Shown here one piece after another: positions 1,929-61,444 of a DNA stretch of 64,000 bases. The notes under the pieces were generated by a model that searched no databases, was not told the DNA's origin, and saw nothing but the letters and a program-made list of their open reading frames with translations. The stretch is taken from positions 11,006-75,005 of the forward strand of contig JBHENQ010000107.1 in NCBI GenBank assembly GCA_046261975.1, written 5' to 3'. The position numbers and the translations under genes are program-made. Position 1 is the first letter of the stretch, and each line of letters starts with the position of its first letter. The stretch is from Gemmatimonadaceae bacterium (GTDB taxonomy: Bacteria; Gemmatimonadota; Gemmatimonadetes; Gemmatimonadales; Gemmatimonadaceae).

Positions 1929-1957
1929 GTCGGGAGTCGGGAGTCGGGAATCGGGAG
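1929..1957. repeat. tandem heptamer array (GTCGGGA x3, ATCGGGA x1) directly after the stop codon of the S9 peptidase gene
   Basis: gtcgggagtcgggagtcgggaatcgggag read directly. Confidence 0.9.
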
Positions 1958-1982
1958 ATCCGAACATCCGGCCTCTCCACAA

Positions 1983-2017
1983 TTCCCTAATCCCTAATCC
2001 CTAATCCCTAATCCCTA
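1983..2017. repeat. tandem heptamer array (TCCCTAA/CCCTAAT x5; complement of TTAGGGA, telomere-like) abutting the stop of the DUF4142 gene
   Basis: ttccctaatccctaatccctaatccctaatccctag read directly. Confidence 0.9.
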
Positions 2018-3110: not shown

Positions 3111-3183
3111 CTGGGGCGGGTGGACTCGAACCACCAACTTCCGGATTAACAGTCCGGCGGTCTGCCAGTTGACCTACACCCCA
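3111..3183 (-). tRNA. tRNA-Asn (anticodon GTT)
   Basis: Minus-strand sequence TGGGGTGTAGGTCAACTGGCAGACCGCCGGACTGTTAATCCGGAAGTTGGTGGTTCGAGTCCACCCGCCCCAG folds as a cloverleaf. 7-bp acceptor stem with one G-U. Anticodon stem CCGGA/TCCGG with loop CTGTTAA. T-arm GGTGG-TTCGAGT-CCACC. CCA not encoded. Confidence 0.8.
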
Positions 3184-26589: not shown

Positions 26590-27513
26590 ATGTTGCTAGC
26601 TCGGAGCATGATCCTCCGCGCTTCGCGCAGCCGTTTCCTGGCTGAGCAGTTTCGACGGCGTGCATTCGCTCGCCGCGCGGTGCGCCGGTTCATGCCGGGC
26701 GAAGATGTTTCCGCGGCCCTCGAAGCCTCCGTCGAATTCACCAAGCTTGGTATCGGCACAGTGCTCACCAACCTTGGCGAGCGAGTCACAACCAGGGCCG
26801 AGGCTACAGGAGTCCGGGATCACTACCTTGGCGTCCTGAATGCAGTGCGGGAACGTGGCCTTCCGGCGCAGATCTCGGTCAAGCTCACGCACCTGGGCCT
26901 GAACGTCGACCAAACGCATTGCGCCGACCACGTGTTGGCGCTCGCCGAACACGCTTCGGTCGACGGGTCTACGGTGTGGCTCGACATGGAAGAATCGCAG
27001 TACACCGATGCTACCCTCACCATCTTTCGGCAGGTCCGGGAGAGACACTCCAACATCGGAGTATGCTTGCAGGCCTATCTCCGGCGCACGGCAGCCGATC
27101 TGGCCGCACTGATGCCGCTGGACCCAGCTATTCGCCTGGTGAAAGGCGCGTACAACGAGCCTCGTGAGATTGCCTTTAGCGAGAAACGAGATGTCGACGA
27201 GAACTTTTTCTCGATCGCGACGCAGCTACTCTCGCTCGCTGGTGATCGGCAGGTAGTACCGGTGTTCGGAACTCACGATATGGGCCTGATAGGCCGCATA
27301 CGCCACCACGCCGGCACTGCCGGGATACCCAGGAGCAATTACGAATTCCACATGCTCTATGGCATCCGTTCAAACGAACAGAGATCGCTCGCGTTGGACG
27401 GTTGCACAGTCAGCGTACTGATCAGTTACGGCACCGCATGGTTCCCCTGGTACATGCGCCGGCTGGCCGAGCGCCCGGCCAATGTTTGGTTCGTGGTCAG
27501 GAATTTGTTCTAG
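26590..27513 (+). CDS. proline dehydrogenase family protein
   Basis: Motifs IRLVKGAY and EFHMLYGI typical of PutA-type proline dehydrogenase domains. Start ATG 26590. 307 aa. Confidence 0.6.
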   Translation: MLLARSMILRASRSRFLAEQFRRRAFARRAVRRFMPGEDVSAALEASVEFTKLGIGTVLTNLGERVTTRAEATGVRDHYLGVLNAVRERGLPAQISVKLTHLGLNVDQTHCADHVLALAEHASVDGSTVWLDMEESQYTDATLTIFRQVRERHSNIGVCLQAYLRRTAADLAALMPLDPAIRLVKGAYNEPREIAFSEKRDVDENFFSIATQLLSLAGDRQVVPVFGTHDMGLIGRIRHHAGTAGIPRSNYEFHMLYGIRSNEQRSLALDGCTVSVLISYGTAWFPWYMRRLAERPANVWFVVRNLF

Positions 27514-27610
27514 GGAAATCGGGAATCGGGAATCGGGAATCGGGAATCGGGAATCGGGAATCGGATCCCGACTCCCGACTCCCGACTCCCGACTCCCGAC
27601 TCCCGACTCC
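27514..27610. repeat. inverted tandem heptamer arrays (GGGAATC)x6 - GGATCC - (CGACTCC)x6 between convergent genes
   Basis: Read directly. Left arm begins at the stop codon of the proline dehydrogenase gene and right arm ends at the stop of the TonB receptor gene. Arms complementary except one position per unit (A-C on plus strand, G-U on minus-strand RNA). Confidence 0.95.
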
Positions 27611-30280
27611 CTAGAAGGTATACTGCGTGCGCGCGATCACTAGTCTGCCGATCGTGGGTGCGCCCACGAACTCCCGGTGTCTCTCGTCAAATATGTTCTG
27701 GGCGTTCACGGCAAGCATCAACCCGCGGGCAAACGGGAGACGATACGCAACGTTAATGTCGGCCAGCGTGTACGACTCCACACGGCCTATGTAAACGCCG
27801 GAGTTCATCGGGAAATCGTCAACGTAGCGACCGCGTATCTCGCCCGATAACCCGCTCGTCTGGTTGCGGTATCGAAGGGCCAGCGAACCCTTGCTGCCAG
27901 GCGCATTGAGAGCAAGATCGGAGTTGCCGCCGATTTCGCTCCTGGGGAAGAAGTCCTTACTGACGAATGAGACAGTAGCGGCGACAGACACCACATCTGT
28001 CATGAGCGCCTCGACAGCCAGATCAGCACCCCATAGATCCAGATCGCCGAAGTTCCGATACGTGAGAAAGAGATCGGGGCTGTTGGTGAGAGGATTGTCT
28101 GGTGTCGCAGTTGCAAGCGGAACAGGTCCAACAGCCTGGGCCATCGCTGTGGCCTCGGCTGTAGCGCGCGCCTGCGCCTGCGCCGGCGGCATACCGGCCG
28201 CGATGTACGCCTGCGTGAGCCTGGTCGCCATGTAGGTGCCGAAAGATGTTGGGTCGACAAACACGCTCGGTGTCTCAACGATCAACGGGCCCACGAAATC
28301 AGTCTTCTTCTCGTAGTACACGTCGGCAGCGAGCAGTACGCGCTTCCCCAGCAATCCTTTGTAGCCACCCTCGATCGTGCTGCTGATCGTGGGCCGCAAT
28401 TGGTCGACGTCGACCACGTCCGCCACTGTTGCGCTTGTGAACGGCGGCCCAGTTCCGCTGGTGTTCAGCTTACGCAGCACCGTCTGAACCTGAGCCGGCG
28501 TTGGAGCAGGAATTTGCGAGATATTGATATTTCGGGCGGCAAGCAGACGTACGATCGGTACCCAGAGTCCCGTGATGTCGCTGGCAAGAAAAGCTGTCTG
28601 GTCGGCAGCGAAGGGTGAGCGCACACAGAGTCCGCCGGCGCAATCGCGGCGGAAACGCAGTCCGCCTTCTGGAACCCCTACCGTGCGAATGAAATAGGGC
28701 AGCTGCGCGTTGAGGCGCTGCACCTGAAGATCGAGGAACAGATTGTTGCTGGTTGGAGTGCTGAACGCGCGGTTGTACGTAAGCCTGAAGTTCTGGTCCT
28801 CTACCGGCTTGAAGACGAGCGCCGCGCGCGGCGAGAAAACAGGATCCTCCAGTCGGCTATGGTTATCCACCCGCGCGGCGGCTATGAAATTAAACTTCGG
28901 CGACAGCCTTGTCTCCGTGTGCACGTAGCCGCCAATCTCCGTGATCTTGTCGTCGTCCTCGTTCCGCCCGTTAATCGTGCCATCCGTCCGCGGATCGGTA
29001 TGTTGCACGTCCAGTCCGTAAATGAAATCGAACCGGTCGGCGAAGCCCATCCCGTGCTGAAGCTGTCCGACGTAGAGACGCGACTTGTCGACGATCCTCT
29101 GGCCGGTGCGGAGAAGGAAGGTTGAGTCGGTATTGCTCTGGTTCAGGAAGACCTGGCCAAAGAGACGCTTATGCCGAGCGCGGCCCTGATAGTACGTATA
29201 GTCCCAGTCCCTCGCCTGCGCGGCGCCGATTCCGGTAAGCTCGATCGCGTTGCCGGCAGATGCCCGGCCGACGCCAAATATCACGTCGGTGTTCGTCCCG
29301 GGACGCCAGTCTGCCCGTGCCTCGCCCGTCCAGCGCTCGACCTTGAAGTCACGCTTGTTCACACCGATGCCGGGAAGCGTATCCGGCTCCGCAGGGTCGT
29401 CAAACTCCCAGTCGTCACCCTGCATGTATTGGCCGGAAATCTTGTAACCAAAGGTCTCACCGACCACACCCGCATGCCGTCCCGAGCCAAGGAAGACAGA
29501 GCGCTCTCCGCCACCCACGCTCAGAGTAGTGCCCCTCGACGTGAACGGTGAACGCGAGATGATATGTAGAACACCGTTCGCACTGTTCGGGCCGTAAAGC
29601 GCGGCGCCCGGGCCAAGCACGATCTCGATCTTCTCAATGTCCTCATTCGTTACGGGAATCAGAAACGGCGTGTTGACGCGGAGCGACGGTACGGATGTGT
29701 ATCTGTTGTCCGTCATCGTCAGTAGCGCACCAGAGAAAACATTGCTGAATCCGCGCGCCACCGTGCTACTCTGCATGAGACCGGTCGTCGCGACATCCAC
29801 CCCGGGCTCACCACGAACGTGCTCCACCGGAGTGAGCACCGGACGATCCTCGATTCGTTCGGTTGGAACCACTGAAACCGACGCAGGCGCATCCAGCGCT
29901 TTTTCGGTGGTTCTCGACACTGTGACGACTTGTGGATTGAGCAGCGCGGCGGTGCTGGTCATGGTAGCCGAAGCGACCGTGACTTCGCTCGCGCTCACAC
30001 GAATACCTGGCAGACGCTGTTGCTGGTACCCGATTCGGGAAATCACAACTGTGTAAACGCCGGGCTCCAGATTGACGAGCCGATACTCTCCGTCATCTCC
30101 CGAAAGTGTGGCCGCCGCGACACCGCCGAGCGCTCCGAACGCCTCCACCCGAGCCGCTGGAACGCCCGCGCCAGTCTCGTCGGTTACCTTGCCGCTGATG
30201 ACGCCAGTCTGAGCGCTCGCAGCCGAGGCCGCGAAGATACCAAGCAGTGCGGTTAACAGAAGTCTGATCCGCATGATCAT
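27611..30280 (-). CDS. TonB-dependent outer-membrane receptor with N-terminal carboxypeptidase-regulatory-like domain
   Basis: Signal peptide (MIMRIRLLLTALLGIFAASAASAQ). CarboxypepD_reg-like GKVTDETGAGVPAARVEA. Plug and 22-strand barrel-sized body. C-terminal ...YTF. Start assigned to internal Met (ORF extends to 30325). Confidence 0.85.
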   Translation of the reverse strand: MIMRIRLLLTALLGIFAASAASAQTGVISGKVTDETGAGVPAARVEAFGALGGVAAATLSGDDGEYRLVNLEPGVYTVVISRIGYQQQRLPGIRVSASEVTVASATMTSTAALLNPQVVTVSRTTEKALDAPASVSVVPTERIEDRPVLTPVEHVRGEPGVDVATTGLMQSSTVARGFSNVFSGALLTMTDNRYTSVPSLRVNTPFLIPVTNEDIEKIEIVLGPGAALYGPNSANGVLHIISRSPFTSRGTTLSVGGGERSVFLGSGRHAGVVGETFGYKISGQYMQGDDWEFDDPAEPDTLPGIGVNKRDFKVERWTGEARADWRPGTNTDVIFGVGRASAGNAIELTGIGAAQARDWDYTYYQGRARHKRLFGQVFLNQSNTDSTFLLRTGQRIVDKSRLYVGQLQHGMGFADRFDFIYGLDVQHTDPRTDGTINGRNEDDDKITEIGGYVHTETRLSPKFNFIAAARVDNHSRLEDPVFSPRAALVFKPVEDQNFRLTYNRAFSTPTSNNLFLDLQVQRLNAQLPYFIRTVGVPEGGLRFRRDCAGGLCVRSPFAADQTAFLASDITGLWVPIVRLLAARNINISQIPAPTPAQVQTVLRKLNTSGTGPPFTSATVADVVDVDQLRPTISSTIEGGYKGLLGKRVLLAADVYYEKKTDFVGPLIVETPSVFVDPTSFGTYMATRLTQAYIAAGMPPAQAQARATAEATAMAQAVGPVPLATATPDNPLTNSPDLFLTYRNFGDLDLWGADLAVEALMTDVVSVAATVSFVSKDFFPRSEIGGNSDLALNAPGSKGSLALRYRNQTSGLSGEIRGRYVDDFPMNSGVYIGRVESYTLADINVAYRLPFARGLMLAVNAQNIFDERHREFVGAPTIGRLVIARTQYTF

Positions 30281-37687: not shown

Positions 37688-37890
37688 GGAGTCGGGAGTC
37701 GGGAGTCGGGAGTCGGGAGTCGGGAGTCGGGAGTCGGGAGTCGGGAGTCGGGAAGAGCTTTGAAAGGAATATAAGGAGAAAGAGAATAGGGAATAGGAAC
37801 CATCCCTATTCCCTATCCCTATCCCGACTCCCGACTCCCGACTCCCGACTCCCGACTCCCGACACCCGACACCCGACACCCGACACCCGA
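37688..37890. repeat. nested inverted heptamer arrays: (GAGTCGG)x9 ... (AATAGGG)x2 / (TCCCTAT)x3 ... (GACTCCC)x5 (GACACCC)x5
   Basis: Read directly. About 200-nt two-level palindrome between the lipoprotein gene stop (37899) and the ggt start (37687). Confidence 0.95.
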
Positions 37891-37898
37891 CACCCGAG

Positions 37899-42175: not shown

Positions 42176-42311
42176 TAGGGATTAGGGATCAGGGATTGGG
42201 GATTAGGGAACGGAAACTTGGGCCCTGTGCGTCGGGCCGGCTATGGAGAGTCCGCAGTGGTATTCCCTAATCCCTAATCCCTAATCCCTAATCCCTAATT
42301 CCTAATCCCTA
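42176..42311. repeat. inverted telomere-like heptamer arrays: (GGGATTA)x5 - 50-nt spacer - (CCCTAAT)x7
   Basis: Read directly. Between the ettA start and the TolB-like gene stop. The last 4 codons (G-I-R-N-stop) of the TolB-like ORF lie inside the right arm. Confidence 0.95.
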
Positions 42312-43382: not shown

Positions 43383-45647
43383 CTAAACAGGGAACAACAT
43401 CTCGCGGTATTTCGGGAGCGGCCAGAAATCATCACCGACCATGACCTCCAAGGCGTCCGAAGCTGCACGTGCGTTGGCCATTCGATCGGCCCCTTCCGAG
43501 GTGAGAAACTGCGCCTGCCCCACCAGATCGTCGTGCATGAATTCCGAACGTTCGATCGCCTTCCCCAACGCCGTGCTGCCTTTGCTCAGTTGCTCGATCA
43601 GCTTCCCTACCTTGTTGGCTGCTTCAACCTGCGGGATGACCTTGATACCCGCAGTCTTGGACTGCGCGGCAGCCGACGCGAGGCTACCGTGATAGGCGAA
43701 TGCACCTGGAAGGACCATCGTGTCTATGATCTGCTGTAGCGTGTGCATCTCGATGAGCATGTCCTTCACGTACCGTTCAAGACGCACGTGATAGCGCGAC
43801 TCGAGCTCCTCCTTGCTCAGAATTCCAAGATTGATGAGTAGGGCTCGCGATTGTTTCGTGACCAGCTGGGCTAGTGCCTCCGGCGTGCGCCGAAAATTGG
43901 GCAATCCGCGTTTGTCCGCCTCAACGACCCATTCCTCGGAGTAGTTGTTCCCTTCGAACCTGACTGCTGAAGTTTGCTTGAAGGACTTCGCCACAACTTT
44001 CAGAACGGCGTCATCCACCGACTTCGTGCGCTTCATGGTCTCGCGGAGGTCTGACGTAACCTCACCGATTGCCTCTGCGACCGTTGCATTCAGAAGCGTG
44101 ATCGGTGCGGCTATGGACGCGGAACCCCCGACCGCGCGGTACTCGAACTTGTTCCCAGTGAAGGCAAAGGGCGACGTGCGGTTGCGATCGGTGTTGTCCT
44201 TCTCGATCTCCGGCAGCTTCGCGACTCCGAGCTTGATTAGTTGTTGCGCAGCACTGACACCGCTTTTCGAGCTCTTCCCAGCGGCAATGTCCTCGATCAG
44301 GCGGGTAAGCATGTCGCCCATGAACACGGAGATGATCGCGGGAGGCGCCTCGTTGGCTCCCAGGCGGTGCTCGTTCCCGGAAGTCGCGATTCCCGCTCGC
44401 AAGAGACCGGCATGCTTGTGGACGGCCTTGAGTACCGCCGCGAGGAAAATCAGGAAGCGGAGATTTTGATGGGGCGTCTTTCCAGGCTTGAGCAAGTTGT
44501 TACCATCGAGCTCCGAGTTATCGGCGATGATCGCCATGGACCAGTTGCAGTGCTTGCCCGAGCCATTGATGCCCGCAAAGGGCTTCTCATGCAGTAGGGC
44601 CTGCAGGCCGTGACGCAGCGCAATGCGCCGCAGCGTTGCCATGACGAGCTGGTTATGATCGACCGCCAGGTCGGTCTCCTCGAAGATCGGGGCCATCTCG
44701 AACTGGCAAGGCGCCACCTCGTTGTGTCGCGTCATGATGGGCACGCCAAGCTTGTAGAGCTCGAACTCCACTTCTGAAAGGCACGCCTGTATACGCTCCG
44801 GAATCCCCCCGAAGTAGTGATCCTCGAGTTGCTGGCCACGTGGCGGCGGAGCGCCGATCAGCGTGCGACCCCCCATAACCAGGTCCGGCCGCAAGGCGAA
44901 GTGTTTCCTGTCGATAAGGAAGTACTCCTGTTCCGGTCCCAACGTTGTGAAGACGCGCTGGACGCCCTTGTCTCCGAGCAGTTCAAGCAGCTCGATTGCC
45001 TTCTCGGAAAGGACGTCCGAGCTCCGGAGAAGCGGCGTCATCTCGTCGAGTGCTTCGCCGTTGTACCCAATGAAGACGGATGGGATGCACAGCGTTCGGA
45101 GCCCTTGGCCCTCGACGATGAACACCGGGCTGGCGGGGTTCCAGGCGGTATAGCCGCGCGCTTCCCACGTGGCGCGCAGACCGCCCGACGGAAAACTGGA
45201 CGCATCGGGCTCACTCTGGATGAGCTGAGCTGCGGTGAATGACTCTATAGCCTGCTGGTTATCGTCAAAAGACAGAAAGGCGTCGTGCTTCTCAGCGGTG
45301 AGTCCGGTCTGCGGCTGGAACCAGTGTGTGAAGTGCGTCACTCCACGAGAGATAGCCCAGTCCTTGATCGCTTGCGCTACCGTCGGCGCAATGTCCAGGT
45401 CAAGCTTCTTACCCTGGCGGATGCAGGCTAGCAGTCGGGCGTAAACATCCTTGGGTAACTTGTCTCGCATCTGGCGCGCGCCGAAGGTATTGATCCCGAA
45501 ATACTCGGACGTTCGGCGATGTCCCATACCGTTGGATGTGTTCGTTCCATTGGCGGAAGGCAAGTGCGAAAGACGCCCTGCTATATCCTGCAGTACCGCT
45601 TTTCGGGGGTTCAATGCTGACGTGGGCATTTGATGAGACGACTCCAT
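43383..45647 (-). CDS. glnN: glutamine synthetase type III
   Basis: About 750 aa. N-terminal SEYFGINTFG...THFTHWFQP and catalytic-domain motifs of GSIII (GlnN). Confidence 0.8.
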   Translation of the reverse strand: MESSHQMPTSALNPRKAVLQDIAGRLSHLPSANGTNTSNGMGHRRTSEYFGINTFGARQMRDKLPKDVYARLLACIRQGKKLDLDIAPTVAQAIKDWAISRGVTHFTHWFQPQTGLTAEKHDAFLSFDDNQQAIESFTAAQLIQSEPDASSFPSGGLRATWEARGYTAWNPASPVFIVEGQGLRTLCIPSVFIGYNGEALDEMTPLLRSSDVLSEKAIELLELLGDKGVQRVFTTLGPEQEYFLIDRKHFALRPDLVMGGRTLIGAPPPRGQQLEDHYFGGIPERIQACLSEVEFELYKLGVPIMTRHNEVAPCQFEMAPIFEETDLAVDHNQLVMATLRRIALRHGLQALLHEKPFAGINGSGKHCNWSMAIIADNSELDGNNLLKPGKTPHQNLRFLIFLAAVLKAVHKHAGLLRAGIATSGNEHRLGANEAPPAIISVFMGDMLTRLIEDIAAGKSSKSGVSAAQQLIKLGVAKLPEIEKDNTDRNRTSPFAFTGNKFEYRAVGGSASIAAPITLLNATVAEAIGEVTSDLRETMKRTKSVDDAVLKVVAKSFKQTSAVRFEGNNYSEEWVVEADKRGLPNFRRTPEALAQLVTKQSRALLINLGILSKEELESRYHVRLERYVKDMLIEMHTLQQIIDTMVLPGAFAYHGSLASAAAQSKTAGIKVIPQVEAANKVGKLIEQLSKGSTALGKAIERSEFMHDDLVGQAQFLTSEGADRMANARAASDALEVMVGDDFWPLPKYREMLFPV

Positions 45648-45928: not shown

Positions 45929-47293
45929 TCAATACTTGGCCAGATAATTGTCTAACTCCCACTGTGAAACCTGCATGATGTAATCCTTCCATTCCTGTCG
46001 TTTCGCTTGCAGAAAGTGAGCGGTGATGTGCTCGCCCAGTGCTTGGGCTATTACCTCGTCCTTCTCGAGCTCGTCACAGGCCTCATTGAGATCCCCGGGT
46101 AAGTCGTCGATGCGAAGGCGGCGCTTCTCGCGATGGGACATTTCCCAGATGTTGGTGTTCACCGGCTCGCGCGCATCCGCTTTCGTCTCGATGCCGTCCA
46201 GCCCTGCCGCCAGCATGACTGCGAGGGCCAGATACGGGTTCGCTGCAGGATCTGGCATGCGGAGCTCGCATCGCGTGCCGAGCCCGCGCCTGTCCGGGAT
46301 GCGGATCATGGGTGACCGGTTGCGCATGGACCAGGCTACGTTTACGGGGGCTTCGAAACCAGGCACCAGTCTCTTGTAGGAATTCACGAGCGGATTCGTG
46401 ATGGCGCTGTATCCTCGCGCATGACGCAACAGGCCGCCGATGTAGTGAAGAGCCACGTCCGAAAGCTCCCACTGCGCATTCTCATCCCAAAATGCGTTCT
46501 TGTTTCCCCTGAATAACGACTGGTGGGTGTGCATTCCGCTCCCGTTCTGGCCAAAAATCGGCTTGGGCATGAACGAGGCAATGAGCCCGAACTGCTCGGC
46601 AACGTATTTTACAACGAACCGAAAGGTTGCGATGTTGTCGGCCGTGGTGAGTGCGTCGGTATAGCGGAAGTCGATTTCGTGCTGGCCGTGAGCGACTTCG
46701 TGATGAGCAGCTTCGACCTCGAAGTCCATCTTCTCCAGAACGTCCACGATGGCCCGCCGGGCGTTCTCGCCAAGGTCGACCGGGGCCAGGTCGAAATACC
46801 CTCCCACATCGTGTGTGACAGTGGAAGCCTCACCGTCCTCATCTCGCTTGAACATGAAGAATTCGGCTTCCATCCCGGCCTTCATCGTGTAGCCGAGCTT
46901 CGCTGCCCTTGCTATCTGCCGCTTGAGCACAGCTCGCGGATCCCCTGGGAAGGGAGTGCCATCAGGGGTGTTGATGTCGCAAATAATGCGCGCAACGCGA
47001 CTCTCACCCGAGGTCCACGGAAAAATCTGAAACGTGCCCAGGTCGGGTGACAGCAACATGTCCGACTCCTCTATTCGGACGAAACCTTCGATGGAAGACC
47101 CGTCGAACATGATGTCTCCCTCGAGCGCCTTCTCAAACTGCGAGGCGGGAACTTCCACGTTCTTGTTTACACCCAGTATGTCGGTGAACTGAAGTCTCAG
47201 AAAGCGCACGTTGTTCTCGGAGGCGAGATTAAGGATTTCCTTTTTGCTTCCGATGTTTAGACTTCGCGCTGCCACGCGGGCTTTGGACGGCAC
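45929..47293 (-). CDS. glnA: glutamine synthetase type I
   Basis: 454 aa. GSI beta-grasp N-domain (FTDILG, MFDGSSIEG) and catalytic motifs FMPKPIFGQNGSGMHTHQS, NSYKRLVPGFEAP. Confidence 0.9.
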   Translation of the reverse strand: MPSKARVAARSLNIGSKKEILNLASENNVRFLRLQFTDILGVNKNVEVPASQFEKALEGDIMFDGSSIEGFVRIEESDMLLSPDLGTFQIFPWTSGESRVARIICDINTPDGTPFPGDPRAVLKRQIARAAKLGYTMKAGMEAEFFMFKRDEDGEASTVTHDVGGYFDLAPVDLGENARRAIVDVLEKMDFEVEAAHHEVAHGQHEIDFRYTDALTTADNIATFRFVVKYVAEQFGLIASFMPKPIFGQNGSGMHTHQSLFRGNKNAFWDENAQWELSDVALHYIGGLLRHARGYSAITNPLVNSYKRLVPGFEAPVNVAWSMRNRSPMIRIPDRRGLGTRCELRMPDPAANPYLALAVMLAAGLDGIETKADAREPVNTNIWEMSHREKRRLRIDDLPGDLNEACDELEKDEVIAQALGEHITAHFLQAKRQEWKDYIMQVSQWELDNYLAKY

Positions 47294-53656: not shown

Positions 53657-53685
53657 TTGACGGAATGGGTAAGCGGTTGTATTGG
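53657..53685 (+). promoter_or_regulatory. sigma70-like promoter (TTGACG - 17 nt - TATTGG) upstream of the H1-like protein gene
   Basis: Hexamers read directly at 53657-53662 and 53680-53685. AGGAGG RBS precedes ATG 53774. Confidence 0.35.
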
Positions 53686-53773
53686 GGAGGGCGGACAGAA
53701 TGTCCGGCATGTTGCGTGCATCCGGCCATAGGAATCCGATCGACCACAGCCCGTTCGCGCACAACACAGGAGG

Positions 53774-54418
53774 ATGAAAATGCCGCGGGGTGACGAGTTT
53801 AACGACGACAATCCCTACGATCGGGATGAAGAGGAAGATCTGGGCTTCGGAGGCGGAGGCGCGTCCTACGACGACGAAGATGAGGAGGGCAGTACCAGCT
53901 GGACGATAGCGAAGAGTCCAGCCGAAGGGTTGTGGGACACGACCGACGATGACGATGATGATGAGGAGCTCGTCGGTACTGGCGAGGAGGATCCGGCATC
54001 CGCCGGCTCAGAGGATGACGATGACATGTCAGGCGGGCTGTTGAGCTCGACTCCCGCACGTCGCGGACGGCCTCGTGGATCGAAGACTGTCCAGCGCTTT
54101 GCAACGTCGAAAGGGGCTGCGCCTTCTTCTCCCGCCAACAGCGCTTCTCAGCTCCCCCTGGCAGCCGCCAGTAAGGCTGCACCGGCAACTTCGGCCCCCA
54201 AGACAGCATCCGCACCCAAGGTGAAGAAGAGCCCAAGCAAGAAGCCAAAGAAGAAGACTGCACCAGCGAAGAAAGCCACAGCGCTCAAGGCCAGACCGAA
54301 GAAGAACAAGAAGACCACCTCGGCTACGGGCCGCAAGGGCATCAGCAAGGCGGGCGCTAAAAGAAACGGGCGCGCTGGGTCCCGAACAAAAACGACCCCG
54401 AAGAAAGGCAAACGCTAG
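53774..54418 (+). CDS. low-complexity DNA-binding-type protein: acidic N-terminal half, AT-hook (RRGRPRGSK), histone-H1-like Lys/Ala/Pro-rich C-terminal tail
   Basis: 214 aa. Residues 1-110 are Asp/Glu-rich (DDDDDDEE runs). Then RGRP AT-hook core. Last 90 aa are KKxxAPAKKA repeats (PKVKKSPSKKPKKKTAPAKKATALKARPKKNKK). Strong RBS. Confidence 0.6.
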   Translation: MKMPRGDEFNDDNPYDRDEEEDLGFGGGGASYDDEDEEGSTSWTIAKSPAEGLWDTTDDDDDDEELVGTGEEDPASAGSEDDDDMSGGLLSSTPARRGRPRGSKTVQRFATSKGAAPSSPANSASQLPLAAASKAAPATSAPKTASAPKVKKSPSKKPKKKTAPAKKATALKARPKKNKKTTSATGRKGISKAGAKRNGRAGSRTKTTPKKGKR

Positions 54419-54540
54419 AAGAGCCGGAGGCCGGCGGTAGGCTCTTGGGAATCGGGAGTCGGAAACGCGAAGCGTTCCGATTCCCGGCTCTTGACCTCCC
54501 TTCCCACGCTCTCCGCTCCGAGTTAAGGTATTCACCGGAC

Positions 54541-55086
54541 ATGTCAGATTCTCCCGTCGCCCTGTTGCGCGCGCACGCCCGTCATGCACCCTGGAATGCT
54601 CGCGGACTCGCCGCGCATACCACGGCGCTAGTGGATGCGGCAGCTATGCGCCCGACGAACGCAGCGGCCCGGGCATCCCCGAGTGCACGTGCCGTACGAT
54701 TCTACGTCGCAAACGGACTGCTGCATCGTCCCGAGGGAACAGGAACCGCGGCGACTTACAACTACCGCCACTTGTTACAACTTCTCTTCATCAAGATCCG
54801 CCAGCGCGAGGGAGTAACGCTGGACCGCATTAAGACCGAGCTGATCGAACAAACTGGTGATGCACTGGAGCGCCGCGTCGCGGTATCGCTGGCACCGACG
54901 CTGGGTGCCGGAGCGGAAAACGTCACAGCACAGATTGACGGCTCCGAGGCCGTTTGGAGGCGCGTTCAGGTAGCGGAAGGCATCGAAGTCCACGTGCGAG
55001 ACGACACACCAGCGGCTCGGGAGCACGCTATGCTGGCGATCCGCGAAGCTGTGAGAGCCGCTCTTGGTCGCGAAGATATCAGATAA
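54541..55086 (+). CDS. MerR-family-like transcriptional regulator (tentative)
   Basis: RAVRFYVANGLL...YNYRHLLQLLFIKIRQREGVTLDRIK resembles the MerR HTH-plus-wing-plus-coiled-coil pattern (RYYExxGLL ... L..I...R..G.SL.EI). Start at ATG 54541. Confidence 0.45.
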   Translation: MSDSPVALLRAHARHAPWNARGLAAHTTALVDAAAMRPTNAAARASPSARAVRFYVANGLLHRPEGTGTAATYNYRHLLQLLFIKIRQREGVTLDRIKTELIEQTGDALERRVAVSLAPTLGAGAENVTAQIDGSEAVWRRVQVAEGIEVHVRDDTPAAREHAMLAIREAVRAALGREDIR

Positions 55087-55090
55087 AGCT

Positions 55091-55193
55091 AGGGATTAGG
55101 GATTAGGGATTAGGGATTAGGGAAAATGGCAGTGCCATTTGTAGTCCTCTAGTCCTAGTCCCTAATCCCTAATCCCTAATCCCTAATCCCTAG
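55091..55193. repeat. inverted telomere-like heptamer arrays (AGGGATT)x4 / (TCCCTAA)x5 flanking a central 8-1-8 palindrome AAATGGCA-G-TGCCATTT
   Basis: Read directly. Between convergent MerR-like (+) and cls (-) genes. Confidence 0.95.
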
Positions 55194-56589: not shown

Positions 56590-57297
56590 TTGCGATTTGA
56601 CGAGCGCGTTGTGATAGTAACGGGTGTGGGACGTAAAGGTCAGGTAGGGGATTTCGTCGCGCGCACGTTTGCTACTCTTGGCGCGTTCGTCGTCGCTGTC
56701 GATCACGACGGCTCGGAGGTAAATGCCCGGGTGGACGAGCTGCAAGCTGCCGGATTGAAGGGCCAAGCGTACGAGTGCGATCTGACCAGCGAAGCTGCCG
56801 TGTCTACCCTCGCCTCGGCAATCTTGAACAAGTTTGAACGAGTGGATGCCCTGATCAATCTGGCGGGCGGCTTCTCCATGGGCGGGCCCCTTGCGGACAG
56901 CGACTTCCAGCTGTGGCAGAGGCAATTCGCGATCAATCTCACCACCGCCTACCTTGCGACACGGGCGCTGCTCCCATTGCTGCGGCCGGCTCGCGGCAGC
57001 ATTGTCTATATGTCCTCCGCTGCCGCGCTGCCTGGCGCCAAAGTCGCAGAGATGTCCGCTTACGCGGCGGCGAAAGGCGGTGTGATCACCCTGATGCGGG
57101 CAGTCGCGGAAGAAGAGCGGGAGCGTGGTGTTCGAGCGAACGCCCTGGCGCCCTCGGCCATTCGCACTGCGGCCAACGTTGAAACGATGGGCGAGAGCCG
57201 GAGCTACGTGTCACGCGAAGAGGTCGCCGCAACTATCACGCTCCTATGCTCGGAAGAAGCGCGGCCGATCACGGGGCAAGTGATAGCTATGGGCTGA
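56590..57297 (+). CDS. SDR family short-chain dehydrogenase/reductase
   Basis: Gly-rich NAD(P) motif VVIVTGVGRKGQVG, catalytic YAAAKGG (YxxxK). 235 aa (alternative start codon). Confidence 0.8.
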   Translation: MRFDERVVIVTGVGRKGQVGDFVARTFATLGAFVVAVDHDGSEVNARVDELQAAGLKGQAYECDLTSEAAVSTLASAILNKFERVDALINLAGGFSMGGPLADSDFQLWQRQFAINLTTAYLATRALLPLLRPARGSIVYMSSAAALPGAKVAEMSAYAAAKGGVITLMRAVAEEERERGVRANALAPSAIRTAANVETMGESRSYVSREEVAATITLLCSEEARPITGQVIAMG

Positions 57298-57302
57298 CAT
57301 TT

Positions 57303-58154
57303 ATGACCACTACGGCGCGGCGCCGGACAGTCACGCGAACGATCCTCCTCGATCGGTCCCTGGAGGCCCTTCCAGTCTTCCGTCTGAGCGACTCGGCCGA
57401 CGAAGCCGCAATCAACTACTCGCCCGCGGGCGGTGGACGCTGGCGCGTCCTCCCCAGCCCCGGCGACAGACTTCCCGGCACTTTCGACCAGGACGTTTAC
57501 GTCGAGATCTGGCACAGATACCTGGACGCGGGCATGCCCTCCGACGGCACTGTCTCTTTCACTCTGCACGCATTTCTGCGCTCGATGGGCCGGCGTGTGG
57601 ACGGACGGACCTATGAGCAGCTTCGGTCCGCGCTCTCGCGGCTGGAACACACCACGCTCGAGTCCCAGGGTGCGTACCGGGACGCTGTCACCGGCACGGT
57701 CCTGGACGGACGTATGGCCCTTTTGGCAGCAGTGATCGTCGAGCGGCGTCGCGTTGCCGACCGGGACCAGTTCACGCTGTTCTCCACCCTCACCGCTTCC
57801 GAACCCGGCGAGGCTCGCGTCATTGTCTCCCCCGCGGCGCGATCAAACATCGCGGCAGGCCACGCGATAACGCTGTCAGCGCAACAATATCGAGCTCTCT
57901 CCTCTCCTGTCGCGCGCAGGCTGTATCGTCTACTCGAGGTCGCGCGTGAAGAAGGAAATCTATTGTGGCACGTTTCGCTGGAGCAACTTGCGGGACAATT
58001 GCCTCTCGCGCAGCATTACCCATCGCATCTGCAGCGCGTTCTCCAGCCCGCGCATGAGATGCTTCTGGCAACCGGACTTTTGCGCGAAGCGACGATGGGC
58101 CAACATATGCGGGACTGGTACGTCGATTACCTGCTGGCACCCAGAGTAGCGTAG
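57303..58154 (+). CDS. hypothetical protein (possible winged-helix / replication-initiator-like fold; unassigned)
   Basis: 283 aa from ATG 57303, 5 nt after the SDR stop. Arg-rich, predicted helical C-terminal half (ITLSAQQYRALSSPVARRLYRLLEVAREEGN). No motif I can assign. Confidence 0.5.
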   Translation: MTTTARRRTVTRTILLDRSLEALPVFRLSDSADEAAINYSPAGGGRWRVLPSPGDRLPGTFDQDVYVEIWHRYLDAGMPSDGTVSFTLHAFLRSMGRRVDGRTYEQLRSALSRLEHTTLESQGAYRDAVTGTVLDGRMALLAAVIVERRRVADRDQFTLFSTLTASEPGEARVIVSPAARSNIAAGHAITLSAQQYRALSSPVARRLYRLLEVAREEGNLLWHVSLEQLAGQLPLAQHYPSHLQRVLQPAHEMLLATGLLREATMGQHMRDWYVDYLLAPRVA

Positions 58155-61333: not shown

Positions 61334-61405
61334 GGGGGTGTCGGGTGTGGGGTGTCGGGTGTGGTGTAAACCCCGACACCCTACACCCGACACCCCACAC
61401 CCGCC
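61334..61405. repeat. inverted heptamer arrays (GGGGTGT/CGGGTGT)x4 - TGTAAA - (CCCGACA/CCCCACA/CCCTACA)x5
   Basis: Read directly. Between the TolB-like gene and the SPFH gene on the same strand. Confidence 0.9.
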
Positions 61406-61444
61406 CTCTTATGCTCCGGATGATTCACGAAAGCTGAGGTACAC

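What the first reader, a model, noticed from the sequence alone, without database searches (positions are those of the whole stretch)
53774..54418. Small protein with acidic N-half, AT-hook and histone-H1-like Lys/Ala/Pro tail
Residues 1-110 are about 40 percent Asp/Glu. Then comes RRGRPRGSK (AT-hook core RGRP). Then a 90-residue tail of KK(P/A)xxAxKKA-type repeats like eukaryotic H1 C-terminal domains and bacterial H1-like proteins such as Hc1 and AlgP-type tails. It has its own promoter (53657-53685) and strong RBS, and an array-type hairpin follows it (54447-54487). It could be a nucleoid-associated protein with an auto-inhibitory acidic domain. It might bind the AT-poor, G4-rich repeat elements of this genome.
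Basis: seen in the sequence. Interest (0 to 1): 0.55.

Follow-up and report, generated by a model that had tools for sequence, protein, structure and literature searches.

The report
Disordered acidic-head, basic-tail protein of Gemmatimonadota
This is a real, separately transcribed gene for a fully disordered protein found only in the soil phylum Gemmatimonadota, with a conserved acidic front half and a histone-H1/HMGA-like basic back half, and it most likely binds DNA, though nobody has studied it.

Summary
The gene is real. Its start is ATG 53780, not 53774, giving 212 aa. It has an acidic head (34 D/E in residues 1-82) and one HMGA-type AT-hook (RRGRPRGSK). Its Lys/Ala/Pro/Ser/Thr tail has no acidic residue.

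It belongs to an unannotated family: 92 clusters among 1.84 billion representatives. All 11 taxon-labelled loci are Gemmatimonadota, and no Pfam, NCBIfam or PDB match exists. AlphaFold2 predicts no fold (pLDDT about 50).

The head is conserved by position (49% identity against 24% for shuffled controls; invariant W41 and L51-W52-D53). The tail is conserved only in composition. The AT-hook is present in about 60% of members.

A 13-nt palindrome in the leader, an AGGAGG site and a terminator-like hairpin complete a single-gene unit.

The best reading is a disordered DNA-binding architectural protein that resembles a free-standing CarD C-terminal domain. Its head would be a regulatory or partner-binding module. 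Binding to polyphosphate granules, binding to RNA, or acting as a condensate scaffold remain open. Binding to G4 repeats is unsupported.

The parts
53657..53685 (+). Promoter: -35 TTGACG (53657-53662), 17-nt spacer, -10-like TATTGG (53680-53685)
   Evidence: The same TTGACG-N17-TATT(G/C)G lies 72-195 nt upstream of the start codon in 10/10 loci with enough upstream DNA. Variants TATACT and TACTAG occur at the same spacing in L011 and L012. It is the only strict match in the 64-kb window (0.13 expected) and in 77 kb of related loci. The generic scanner missed it because the second hexamer lacks the final T.
53707..53719 (+). Conserved 13-nt palindromic element in the 5' leader (GCATGTTGCGTGC; family consensus GCAYRCGNCGTGC)
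   Evidence: It is found in the leader of 10 loci, 52-105 nt before the ATG. The outer three pairs GCA/TGC are invariant. Covariation is not significant, so an RNA hairpin cannot be told apart from a DNA operator. There is no Rfam match.
53768..53773 (+). Shine-Dalgarno AGGAGG, 6 nt before ATG 53780
   Evidence: Read directly from the sequence. AGGAGG or GGGGG lies at the same distance in all relatives. The leader is not unusually structured (z = +1.25).
53780..54418 (+). CDS, 212 aa plus stop (corrected start; the listed ORF begins at 53774)
   Evidence: Homologues start MPRGDE.
53780..54025 (+). Acidic, aromatic-studded head (residues 1-82; 34 D/E). Positionally conserved motifs: MPRGDE, RF/PY, LGF, SYDDEDEE, W41, L51-W52-D53, poly-D
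   Evidence: Alignments A1-A4 and A7. Head pairwise identity is 49% against 24% for shuffled controls. pLDDT is 50-59 with no secondary structure except one helical turn at the LWD motif.
53930..53938 (+). Invariant L-W-D motif (residues 51-53)
   Evidence: It is invariant in the 12-sequence alignment A2. W52 and D53 are also invariant in the 20-31-sequence alignments, where L51 is 90% or more conserved. It is the only helical turn in both AlphaFold2 models.
54059..54085 (+). AT-hook RRGRPRGSK (residues 94-102)
   Evidence: It matches HMGA1 hook 2 at 10/14 positions. A GRP core at the equivalent place occurs in 51 of 85 sufficiently long family members.
54086..54415 (+). Basic Lys/Ala/Pro/Ser/Thr tail (residues 103-212), no acidic residue
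   Evidence: All 12 complete family members have 27-46% K+R and 0-2% D/E in the last 90 aa. Their sequence identity (30%) is no better than that of shuffled tails (27%).
54447..54490 (+). Terminator-like GC-rich hairpin (16-bp core at 54452-54487, GAA loop), no U-tract
   Evidence: It is unique in the window. Most other complete loci (clearest in L005, L008, L011, L012 and L013) carry a strong but unrelated GC-rich hairpin 10-50 nt after the stop codon.

Best explanation
The gene encodes a Gemmatimonadota-specific protein that is disordered along its whole length and has two oppositely charged halves.

Inferred: the basic half binds DNA electrostatically and through the minor groove, with some preference for A/T tracts. 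This half is one HMGA-type AT-hook followed by a tail that resembles the C-terminal domain of histone H1. The protein would act as an architectural chromatin or transcription cofactor.

Inferred: the acidic, aromatic-studded head is a regulatory module. It either folds back on the tail to tune its affinity, as the acidic tails of HMG-box proteins do, or it docks onto a conserved partner protein, or both.

The layout (acidic segment, then AT-hook/H1-like basic region, all unfolded) is that of the C-terminal DNA-binding domain of myxobacterial CarD. Here it stands alone, without an RNA-polymerase-binding domain.

Shown: the gene and its family, the disorder prediction, the motif content, the two modes of conservation, and the single-gene transcription unit. 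Not shown: any binding activity, cellular location or partner.
For: 1. Real, conserved gene. The profile search finds 92 clusters, 66 of them at E<=1e-10. Thirteen genomic loci share synteny.
2. The AT-hook is authentic. RRGRPRGSK matches HMGA1 hook 2 at 10/14 positions. Many relatives read RGRRGRPKGS. It recurs at one fixed place in 51/85 members.
3. All 12 complete members end in a tail of 27-46% K+R with 0-2% D/E. Net charge is always positive, +2 to +37 in the 11 complete members for which it was computed.
4. Tail repeats expand and contract, as in known bacterial H1-like proteins. L005 has 15 nt x 14. L012 and L013 differ, 308 against 318 aa.
5. Disorder. Mean pLDDT is 50 and 49, pTM 0.17, with no secondary structure. 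Both halves lie on the disordered side of the charge-hydropathy plot.
6. The head is conserved by position: 49% against 24% for shuffles, with W41 and LWD invariant.
7. Precedents. CarD's unfolded C-terminal domain is 'an acidic segment followed by ... RGRP or AT-hook repeats' (PMC4374960). H1-like and HMGA-like versions occur among CarD orthologues (PMC9304148). Acidic tails occlude the DNA-binding surfaces of HMG-box proteins (PMC4207994).
8. A conserved promoter, a strong SD, an unstructured leader and a terminator hairpin fit a well-expressed, independently controlled gene.
Against: - There is no experimental or database evidence of DNA binding for any member.
- There is one AT-hook only, whereas high-affinity HMGA binding uses two or three. 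About 40% of members have none.
- In some lineages (L009, L010) the tail is Ser/Gly/Arg-rich rather than Lys/Ala/Pro-rich. That composition fits RNA or general polyanion binding just as well.
- A/T tracts of 6 nt or more are depleted in this window: 70 against 163 expected. AT-hook targets are therefore scarce.
- H1-like tails also bind polyphosphate (AlgP, PMC9239181).
- The alignments used for structure prediction were shallow (27-31 sequences), so low pLDDT alone does not prove disorder.
Confidence: 0.5

Rival explanations
1. It is a polyphosphate-granule protein or a granule-to-nucleoid tether that works like Pseudomonas AlgP. The basic tail would bind polyP, and possibly DNA as well, and the head would control spacing or recruit polyP enzymes.
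For: The H1-like C-terminal domain of AlgP is needed for polyP granule localisation and spacing (PMC9239181). The type species of the phylum was described as a polyphosphate-accumulating organism (Zhang et al. 2003, cited in PMC9530729). The tail is conserved only in charge and composition, which suits any polyanion.
Against: No ppk or ppx gene lies in the conserved neighbourhood. The AT-hook is a DNA minor-groove motif and has no known role in polyP binding. No sequence comparison with AlgP itself was run; the family has no Pfam or NCBIfam match of any kind.
Confidence: 0.15
2. It is an RNA- or ribosome-associated disordered protein, such as an RNA chaperone or an assembly or hibernation cofactor. 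The basic tail would bind RNA.
For: In L009 and L010 the tails are Arg/Gly/Ser-rich with GGRSGGRS-type repeats. That composition is typical of RNA-binding disordered regions (established knowledge). The strong SD and conserved promoter suggest high expression.
Against: The RGRP AT-hook and the K/A/P tail are best known from DNA binders. No ribosomal or RNA-processing genes lie in the conserved neighbourhood.
Confidence: 0.12
3. It is a self-associating diblock polyampholyte that forms condensates, or acts as a protective disordered protein under desiccation or osmotic stress, without a specific nucleic-acid target. Head-to-tail electrostatic and cation-pi contacts between molecules would drive assembly.
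For: The charges are fully segregated and nearly balanced in about half of the complete members, with net charge +2 to +7 in 6 of 11. Aromatic residues lie at regular, conserved positions in the head. Disorder is predicted throughout.
Against: Net charge reaches +12 to +37 in other members, which argues against simple self-neutralisation. The conserved AT-hook is not explained. Positional conservation of the head exceeds what sticker-and-spacer models usually need.
Confidence: 0.1
4. It is a chance ORF in GC-rich low-complexity DNA, or a secreted low-complexity protein.
For: Overlapping antisense ORFs of 154-186 aa exist. Many database relatives are truncated or frameshifted.
Against: The family is conserved at the protein level across 13 loci with conserved synteny, promoter, SD and start codon. 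There is no hydrophobic segment that could serve as a signal peptide.
Confidence: 0.03

Closest known systems
C-terminal DNA-binding domain of Myxococcus xanthus CarD, and its H1-like variant in Anaeromyxobacter and Vulgatibacter CarD
   Same: It is intrinsically unfolded. The order of parts is the same: an acidic segment first, then RGRP AT-hook(s) and/or a K/A/P-rich H1-like region (PMC4374960, PMC9304148). Within one family, hook-containing and hook-less, purely H1-like versions coexist.
   Different: CarD has a folded N-terminal CarD_CdnL_TRCF domain that binds RNA polymerase and CarG. This protein has no folded domain and no Pfam hit. It has one hook rather than 3-4. Its acidic segment is conserved by position with invariant Trp residues. 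It occurs in a different phylum.
Eukaryotic HMGA1/HMGA2
   Same: It is small, fully disordered, and has an RGRP AT-hook with the GS(K) flank of hook 2 (10/14 identical) plus a strongly acidic segment.
   Different: HMGA has three hooks and a short acidic C-terminal tail. Here there is one hook, the acidic part is N-terminal and makes up 40% of the protein, and a long H1-like tail follows.
Bacterial histone-H1-like proteins: Pseudomonas AlgP, Chlamydia Hc1/Hc2, Streptomyces DdbA
   Same: They have a Lys/Ala/Pro-rich, repeat-prone basic region that binds DNA, and polyP in the case of AlgP (PMC9239181, PMC2848022, PMC3643593). Repeat copy number varies between close relatives.
   Different: None of these has a conserved acidic-aromatic head or an RGRP hook. 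There is no Pfam or NCBIfam match of any kind, the Hc1 family included. The window's own tail has no regular repeats.
HMG-box proteins with acidic tails (HMGB1, HMG-D)
   Same: An acidic disordered segment in the same chain as a DNA-binding region. In those proteins it occludes the DNA-binding surface (PMC4207994).
   Different: There is no HMG box or any folded domain here. The regulation is inferred by analogy only.

Membership tests
AT-hook / HMGA proteins | GRP core flanked by Arg/Lys (R-G-R-P) | tested here: met
   RRGRPRGSK at residues 94-102. It matches HMGA1 hook 2 at 10/14 positions. By composition 0.007 are expected.
AT-hook / HMGA proteins | Two or three hooks per polypeptide and a short C-terminal acidic tail | tested here: not met
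   There is only one RGRP in the protein. The acidic segment is N-terminal and 82 residues long.
AT-hook / HMGA proteins | Binds the minor groove of A/T-rich DNA | not testable with these tools
   This needs EMSA or footprinting.
Linker histone H1 | Winged-helix globular domain (linker_histone, PF00538) | tested here: not met
   No Pfam hit at E<=0.1 and only chance-level hits (best 0.11) at E<=1. AlphaFold2 predicts no folded domain.
Linker histone H1 | Lys/Ala/Pro-rich disordered C-terminal domain | tested here: met
   The last 90 aa are K 27%, A 20%, P 10%, D/E 0%. Lys content is lower and Ser/Thr content higher than in typical H1 C-terminal domains (comparison from established knowledge).
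Chlamydial Hc1/Hc2 and other catalogued bacterial H1-like families | Match to the family profile | tested here: not met
   Only chance-level Pfam or NCBIfam hits (best E 0.11) and no PDB relative.
CarD (myxobacterial) | N-terminal CarD_CdnL_TRCF RNA-polymerase-interacting domain | tested here: not met
   No Pfam hit. The family match always begins at residue 1 with the acidic head.
CarD (myxobacterial) | Unfolded C-terminal region made of an acidic segment followed by AT-hooks or an H1-like region | tested here: met
   The order of segments was read from the sequence. The definition comes from PMC4374960 and PMC9304148. This is a resemblance in layout; homology was not tested.
AlgP-type proteins | Long array of KPAA-type tandem repeats | tested here: not met
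   The window has no array. Some relatives do have AKKAP-type arrays.
H-NS / Lsr2 / MvaT-type xenogeneic silencers | Folded oligomerisation domain plus a folded DNA-binding domain with a Q/RGR hook | tested here: not met
   There are no profile hits and no predicted fold.

The most novel reading that the evidence does not exclude
A phylum-specific chromatin protein that joins an HMGA-type hook and an H1-like tail to a built-in, sequence-conserved acidic-aromatic 'chaperone' head. The head would act as a DNA mimic for the protein's own tail and as a docking site for a conserved partner such as RNA polymerase or another nucleoid protein. One disordered chain would then switch between a closed, self-neutralised state and a DNA-bound or polyP-bound, condensate-forming state. 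This would be a bacterial, single-polypeptide counterpart of the eukaryotic prothymosin-alpha/H1 or HMGB1/H1 pairs. Its expression would be controlled through the ultra-conserved promoter and the leader palindrome.
Probability: 0.2. Interest if true: 0.7.

Novelty: new variant of a known kind. Interest (0 to 1): 0.5.

Why it matters
Gemmatimonadota are abundant in soils but are almost unstudied at the molecular level, and no chromatin protein specific to them has been described. This family would add a fully disordered, oppositely charged two-block design to the known bacterial DNA-organising proteins.

It would also be a second, independent case, after myxobacterial CarD, in which eukaryote-like HMGA and H1 modules appear together in bacteria. 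That bears on the old question of where K/A/P-rich H1 tails and AT-hooks came from.

The positionally conserved acidic head is the new element. It gives a direct handle for finding a partner and for testing intramolecular auto-inhibition in a bacterial disordered protein.

The invariant promoter and leader element give a defined regulatory target in a phylum whose promoters are uncharacterised.

Tried and rejected
- Profile libraries (Pfam, NCBIfam, PHROGs) gave nothing consistent. The only hits were isolated, weak, low-complexity ones that were not shared between members, such as phrog_20988 at E 9e-4 and SOG2 at E 0.68.
- PDB sequence searches with the protein and with the family profile found nothing.
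- Rfam on the locus and on the whole window found only one tRNA, at 3111-3183.
- Exact look-ups of the window's protein, in both the 214-aa and 212-aa forms, found no record.
- The metagenome scan added only 3 loci.
- The consensus promoter/terminator scanner found neither the promoter nor the hairpin. Both were recovered by comparing loci and by folding.
- The covariation test on the 5-bp leader palindrome was not significant: 124 of 500 shuffles scored as high. No RNA-structure claim is made.
- The hypothesis that the hairpin after the gene belongs to the window's repeat arrays was rejected. It is unique in sequence.
- The hypothesis that TTGACG-N17-TATTGG is a general promoter of this genome was rejected for this window, which holds a single occurrence.
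- A functional link to neighbouring genes could not be established. The gene between this one and the MerR-like gene varies (alpha/beta hydrolase, histidine kinase or none). The rest is shared synteny.
- The beta-clamp-like 'EADLF' motif seen in one subfamily is not conserved in the window and was dropped.
- Fold searches were not run, because both models are unstructured.
- The García-Heras 2009 paper (PMC2726384) is not held.

Full report
**What is in the sequence**

The ORF 53774..54418 (+) exists. AGGAGG lies at 53768-53773. It touches the first ATG (53774) and sits 6 nt before the second (53780). All homologues begin MPRGDE or MPSGDE. I therefore place the start at 53780, which gives 212 aa.

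By composition, 0.007 RGRP motifs would be expected in this protein. The motif aligns with the second AT-hook of human HMGA1, TPAR-RGRPRGSKT against TPKRPRGRPKGSKN, at 10/14 positions.

The last 90 residues are K 27%, A 20%, P 10%, S+T 21% and D/E 0%. That composition is like an H1 C-terminal domain. There is no regular repeat: TRF finds only two copies of a 12-mer.

**It is a real gene family, restricted to Gemmatimonadota and unannotated**

A first protein search gave 3 relatives. A genome scan gave 8 loci, all from Gemmatimonadota MAGs. A profile of the N-terminal halves gave 90 proteins.

An exhaustive HMMER search of 1.84 billion cluster representatives gave only 92 hits, 66 of them at E<=1e-10. 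Nearly all are short stand-alone proteins, and in most the match begins at residue 1 (a few gene calls start upstream of the true start). The one long hit (P0143, 622 aa) is an unrelated acidic repeat protein.

Every name attached to a member is 'hypothetical protein'. There is no match in Pfam, NCBIfam, PHROGs or PDB.

Many database members are truncated or frameshifted. This is probably because the GC-rich low-complexity DNA assembles badly. I therefore relied on the 12 complete members: the window, L004, L005, L008-L012, P0098, P0101, P0124 and P0130.

The window itself is chromosomal. The order GS-CBS-zinc ribbon-MqnA-[HK-RR(HD)]-X-[variable gene]-MerR-like-PLD-(SDR)-RPA-like-S41 protease recurs on contigs of up to 1.8 Mb.

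**Two modes of conservation**

From M1 to the LWD motif, the head has 49% mean pairwise identity among the complete members. Composition-matched shuffles give 24%. W41, L51, W52 and D53 are invariant. Near-invariant aromatic residues lie at about positions 13, 23 and 30.

The tails share 30% identity against 27% for shuffles, so they are conserved in composition only. K+R is 27-46% and D/E 0-2% in all 12.

Tail chemistry drifts between lineages. It is Lys/Ala/Pro with true tandem repeats in L005 (15 nt x 14) and in L011-L013. L012 and L013 differ by one repeat block, 308 against 318 aa. In L009 and L010 it is Ser/Gly/Arg-rich.

Net charge is always positive, +2 to +37 in the 11 complete members for which it was computed. 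A GRP hook at the equivalent position is present in 51 of 85 members long enough to judge. It is absent from the L003-L008 group.

**Disorder**

AlphaFold2 was run with family alignments of 27 and 31 sequences. It gives mean pLDDT 50 and 49, pTM 0.17, and no secondary structure except one helical turn at the LWD motif. This holds for both the window protein and P0098.

Both halves fall on the disordered side of the charge-hydropathy boundary. No 19-residue window exceeds a mean hydropathy of 0.39, so there is no signal peptide or membrane segment.

**The transcription unit**

The generic scanner did not report it.

The same -35 hexamer, the same 17-nt spacing and TATT(G/C)G occur upstream of the gene in 10 of 10 loci with enough sequence. 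L011 and L012 carry TATACT and TACTAG at the same spacing. The strict motif occurs once in the 64-kb window (0.13 expected) and nowhere else in 77 kb of related loci.

The leader holds a conserved 13-nt palindrome, with consensus GCAYRCGNCGTGC and the window copy at 53707-53719, in 10 loci. Covariation is not significant, so I cannot say whether it acts as RNA or as DNA. The leader as a whole is not unusually structured (z = +1.25).

A 16-bp hairpin at 54447-54490 follows the stop codon. Most other complete loci also have a strong GC-rich hairpin there, with unrelated sequence. This fits a terminator.

The next gene is the MerR-like one. It most likely starts at 54541, giving 181 aa as in its homologues.

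**Mechanism**

What is shown is a disordered, charge-segregated protein with an authentic AT-hook, an H1-like or otherwise basic tail, and a head conserved by position.

From established knowledge of AT-hooks and H1 tails, I infer that the basic half binds DNA. The closest known layout is the unfolded C-terminal domain of CarD: 'an acidic segment followed by ... RGRP or AT-hook repeats' (PMC4374960). Among CarD orthologues, the hook region is replaced by an H1-like region in some species (PMC9304148). The same hook-or-no-hook alternation is seen in this family.

The head could fold back on the tail, as acidic tails do in HMG-box proteins (PMC4207994). Its positional conservation, however, suggests a specific contact or a partner protein. 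I give this DNA-binding architectural reading a probability of 0.5.

**Rivals**

- A polyP-granule role like AlgP (PMC9239181) is plausible because the phylum's type species accumulates polyP (Zhang 2003, cited in PMC9530729). No polyP genes are nearby. Probability 0.15.
- RNA binding is suggested by the Arg/Gly/Ser tails of some members. Probability 0.12.
- A self-coacervating or protective disordered protein is suggested by the near-balanced charges in half of the members. Probability 0.10.
- A chance ORF or a secreted protein is rejected. Probability 0.03.

The window does contain inverted arrays of the heptamer GGGATTA. One lies at 55092-55190, just past the MerR-like gene. The arrays are absent from all 13 related loci, while the protein family is phylum-wide. 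The hairpin after this gene is not one of them. Nothing supports a link.

**Verdict**

This is a new, uncharacterised variant of the bacterial H1/HMGA-like class. Its distinctive features are the conserved acidic-aromatic head and a tightly conserved promoter and leader.

Noticed in passing
window 1932-2015, 27513-27611, 37694-37895, 42178-42309, 55092-55190, 61334-61406: Several intergenic gaps carry inverted arrays: G-rich runs, a spacer, then C-rich runs. At 1984-2015, 42178-42309 and 55092-55190 the unit is the heptamer GGGATTA, as (GGGATTA)n followed by (TAATCCC)n. The 18-mer GGGATTAGGGATTAGGGA has 17 hits with up to 2 mismatches, against 0 expected. It is absent from all 13 related loci. 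The other three sites were found only as paired G-run/C-run motifs. These elements look telomere-repeat-like, could form G4 structures or hairpins, and appear lineage-specific.
   Followed up: partly
window 53657-53685 and the equivalent positions in L001, L003-L012: The promoter-like motif TTGACG-N17-TATT(G/C)G has an invariant -35 hexamer and invariant spacing across the family. Its -10 element lacks the usual final T. It occurs only before this gene in 141 kb examined. It may reflect an unusual sigma-factor preference or gene-specific control in Gemmatimonadota.
   Followed up: partly
window 53707-53719; L001 1696-1708; L005 5913-5925; L011 about 82 nt before its ATG: A conserved 13-nt palindrome (GCAYRCGNCGTGC) lies in the 5' leader of the gene in 10 loci. 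Its role is unknown: it could be an operator or an RNA hairpin. The covariation test was not significant.
   Followed up: partly
window 57246-58154 (+): A protein matches plasmid Replication initiator protein A (PF10134, E 4.6e-19). It sits in a conserved chromosomal neighbourhood and has a 74%-identical counterpart at the same place in L010. The listed ORF overlaps the preceding SDR gene by 52 nt, so its true start is probably later.
   Followed up: no
window 54445-55086 (+): A MerR-family regulator lies downstream in every locus with enough sequence, at 72-79% identity. Its likely true start is ATG 54541, giving 181 aa as in its homologues. Only the HTH region matches known MerR subfamilies, and weakly. 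The gene between it and the target varies: alpha/beta hydrolase, histidine kinase or none.
   Followed up: partly
L012 4001-4927 compared with L013 4001-4957: Two near-identical metagenome loci differ by 10 residues in the number of APPAK repeats in the tail, 308 against 318 aa. Repeat number therefore varies between close relatives, as in chlamydial Hc2.
   Followed up: no
whole window: A/T tracts of 6 nt or more are depleted: 70 observed against about 163 in mononucleotide shuffles. Only five tracts reach 8 nt.
   Followed up: no
window 43383-45647 (-) and 45929-47293 (-): A type III glutamine synthetase and a type I glutamine synthetase are encoded side by side. The type I gene is 78-79% identical to counterparts in four related loci (L006, L009, L010 and L011).
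   Followed up: no
proteins P0096, P0103, P0107, P0102 and others: Many database entries of this family run into frameshifted or chimeric C-termini, or are cut at contig ends. Automated catalogues therefore under-represent the basic tail of this family.
   Followed up: no
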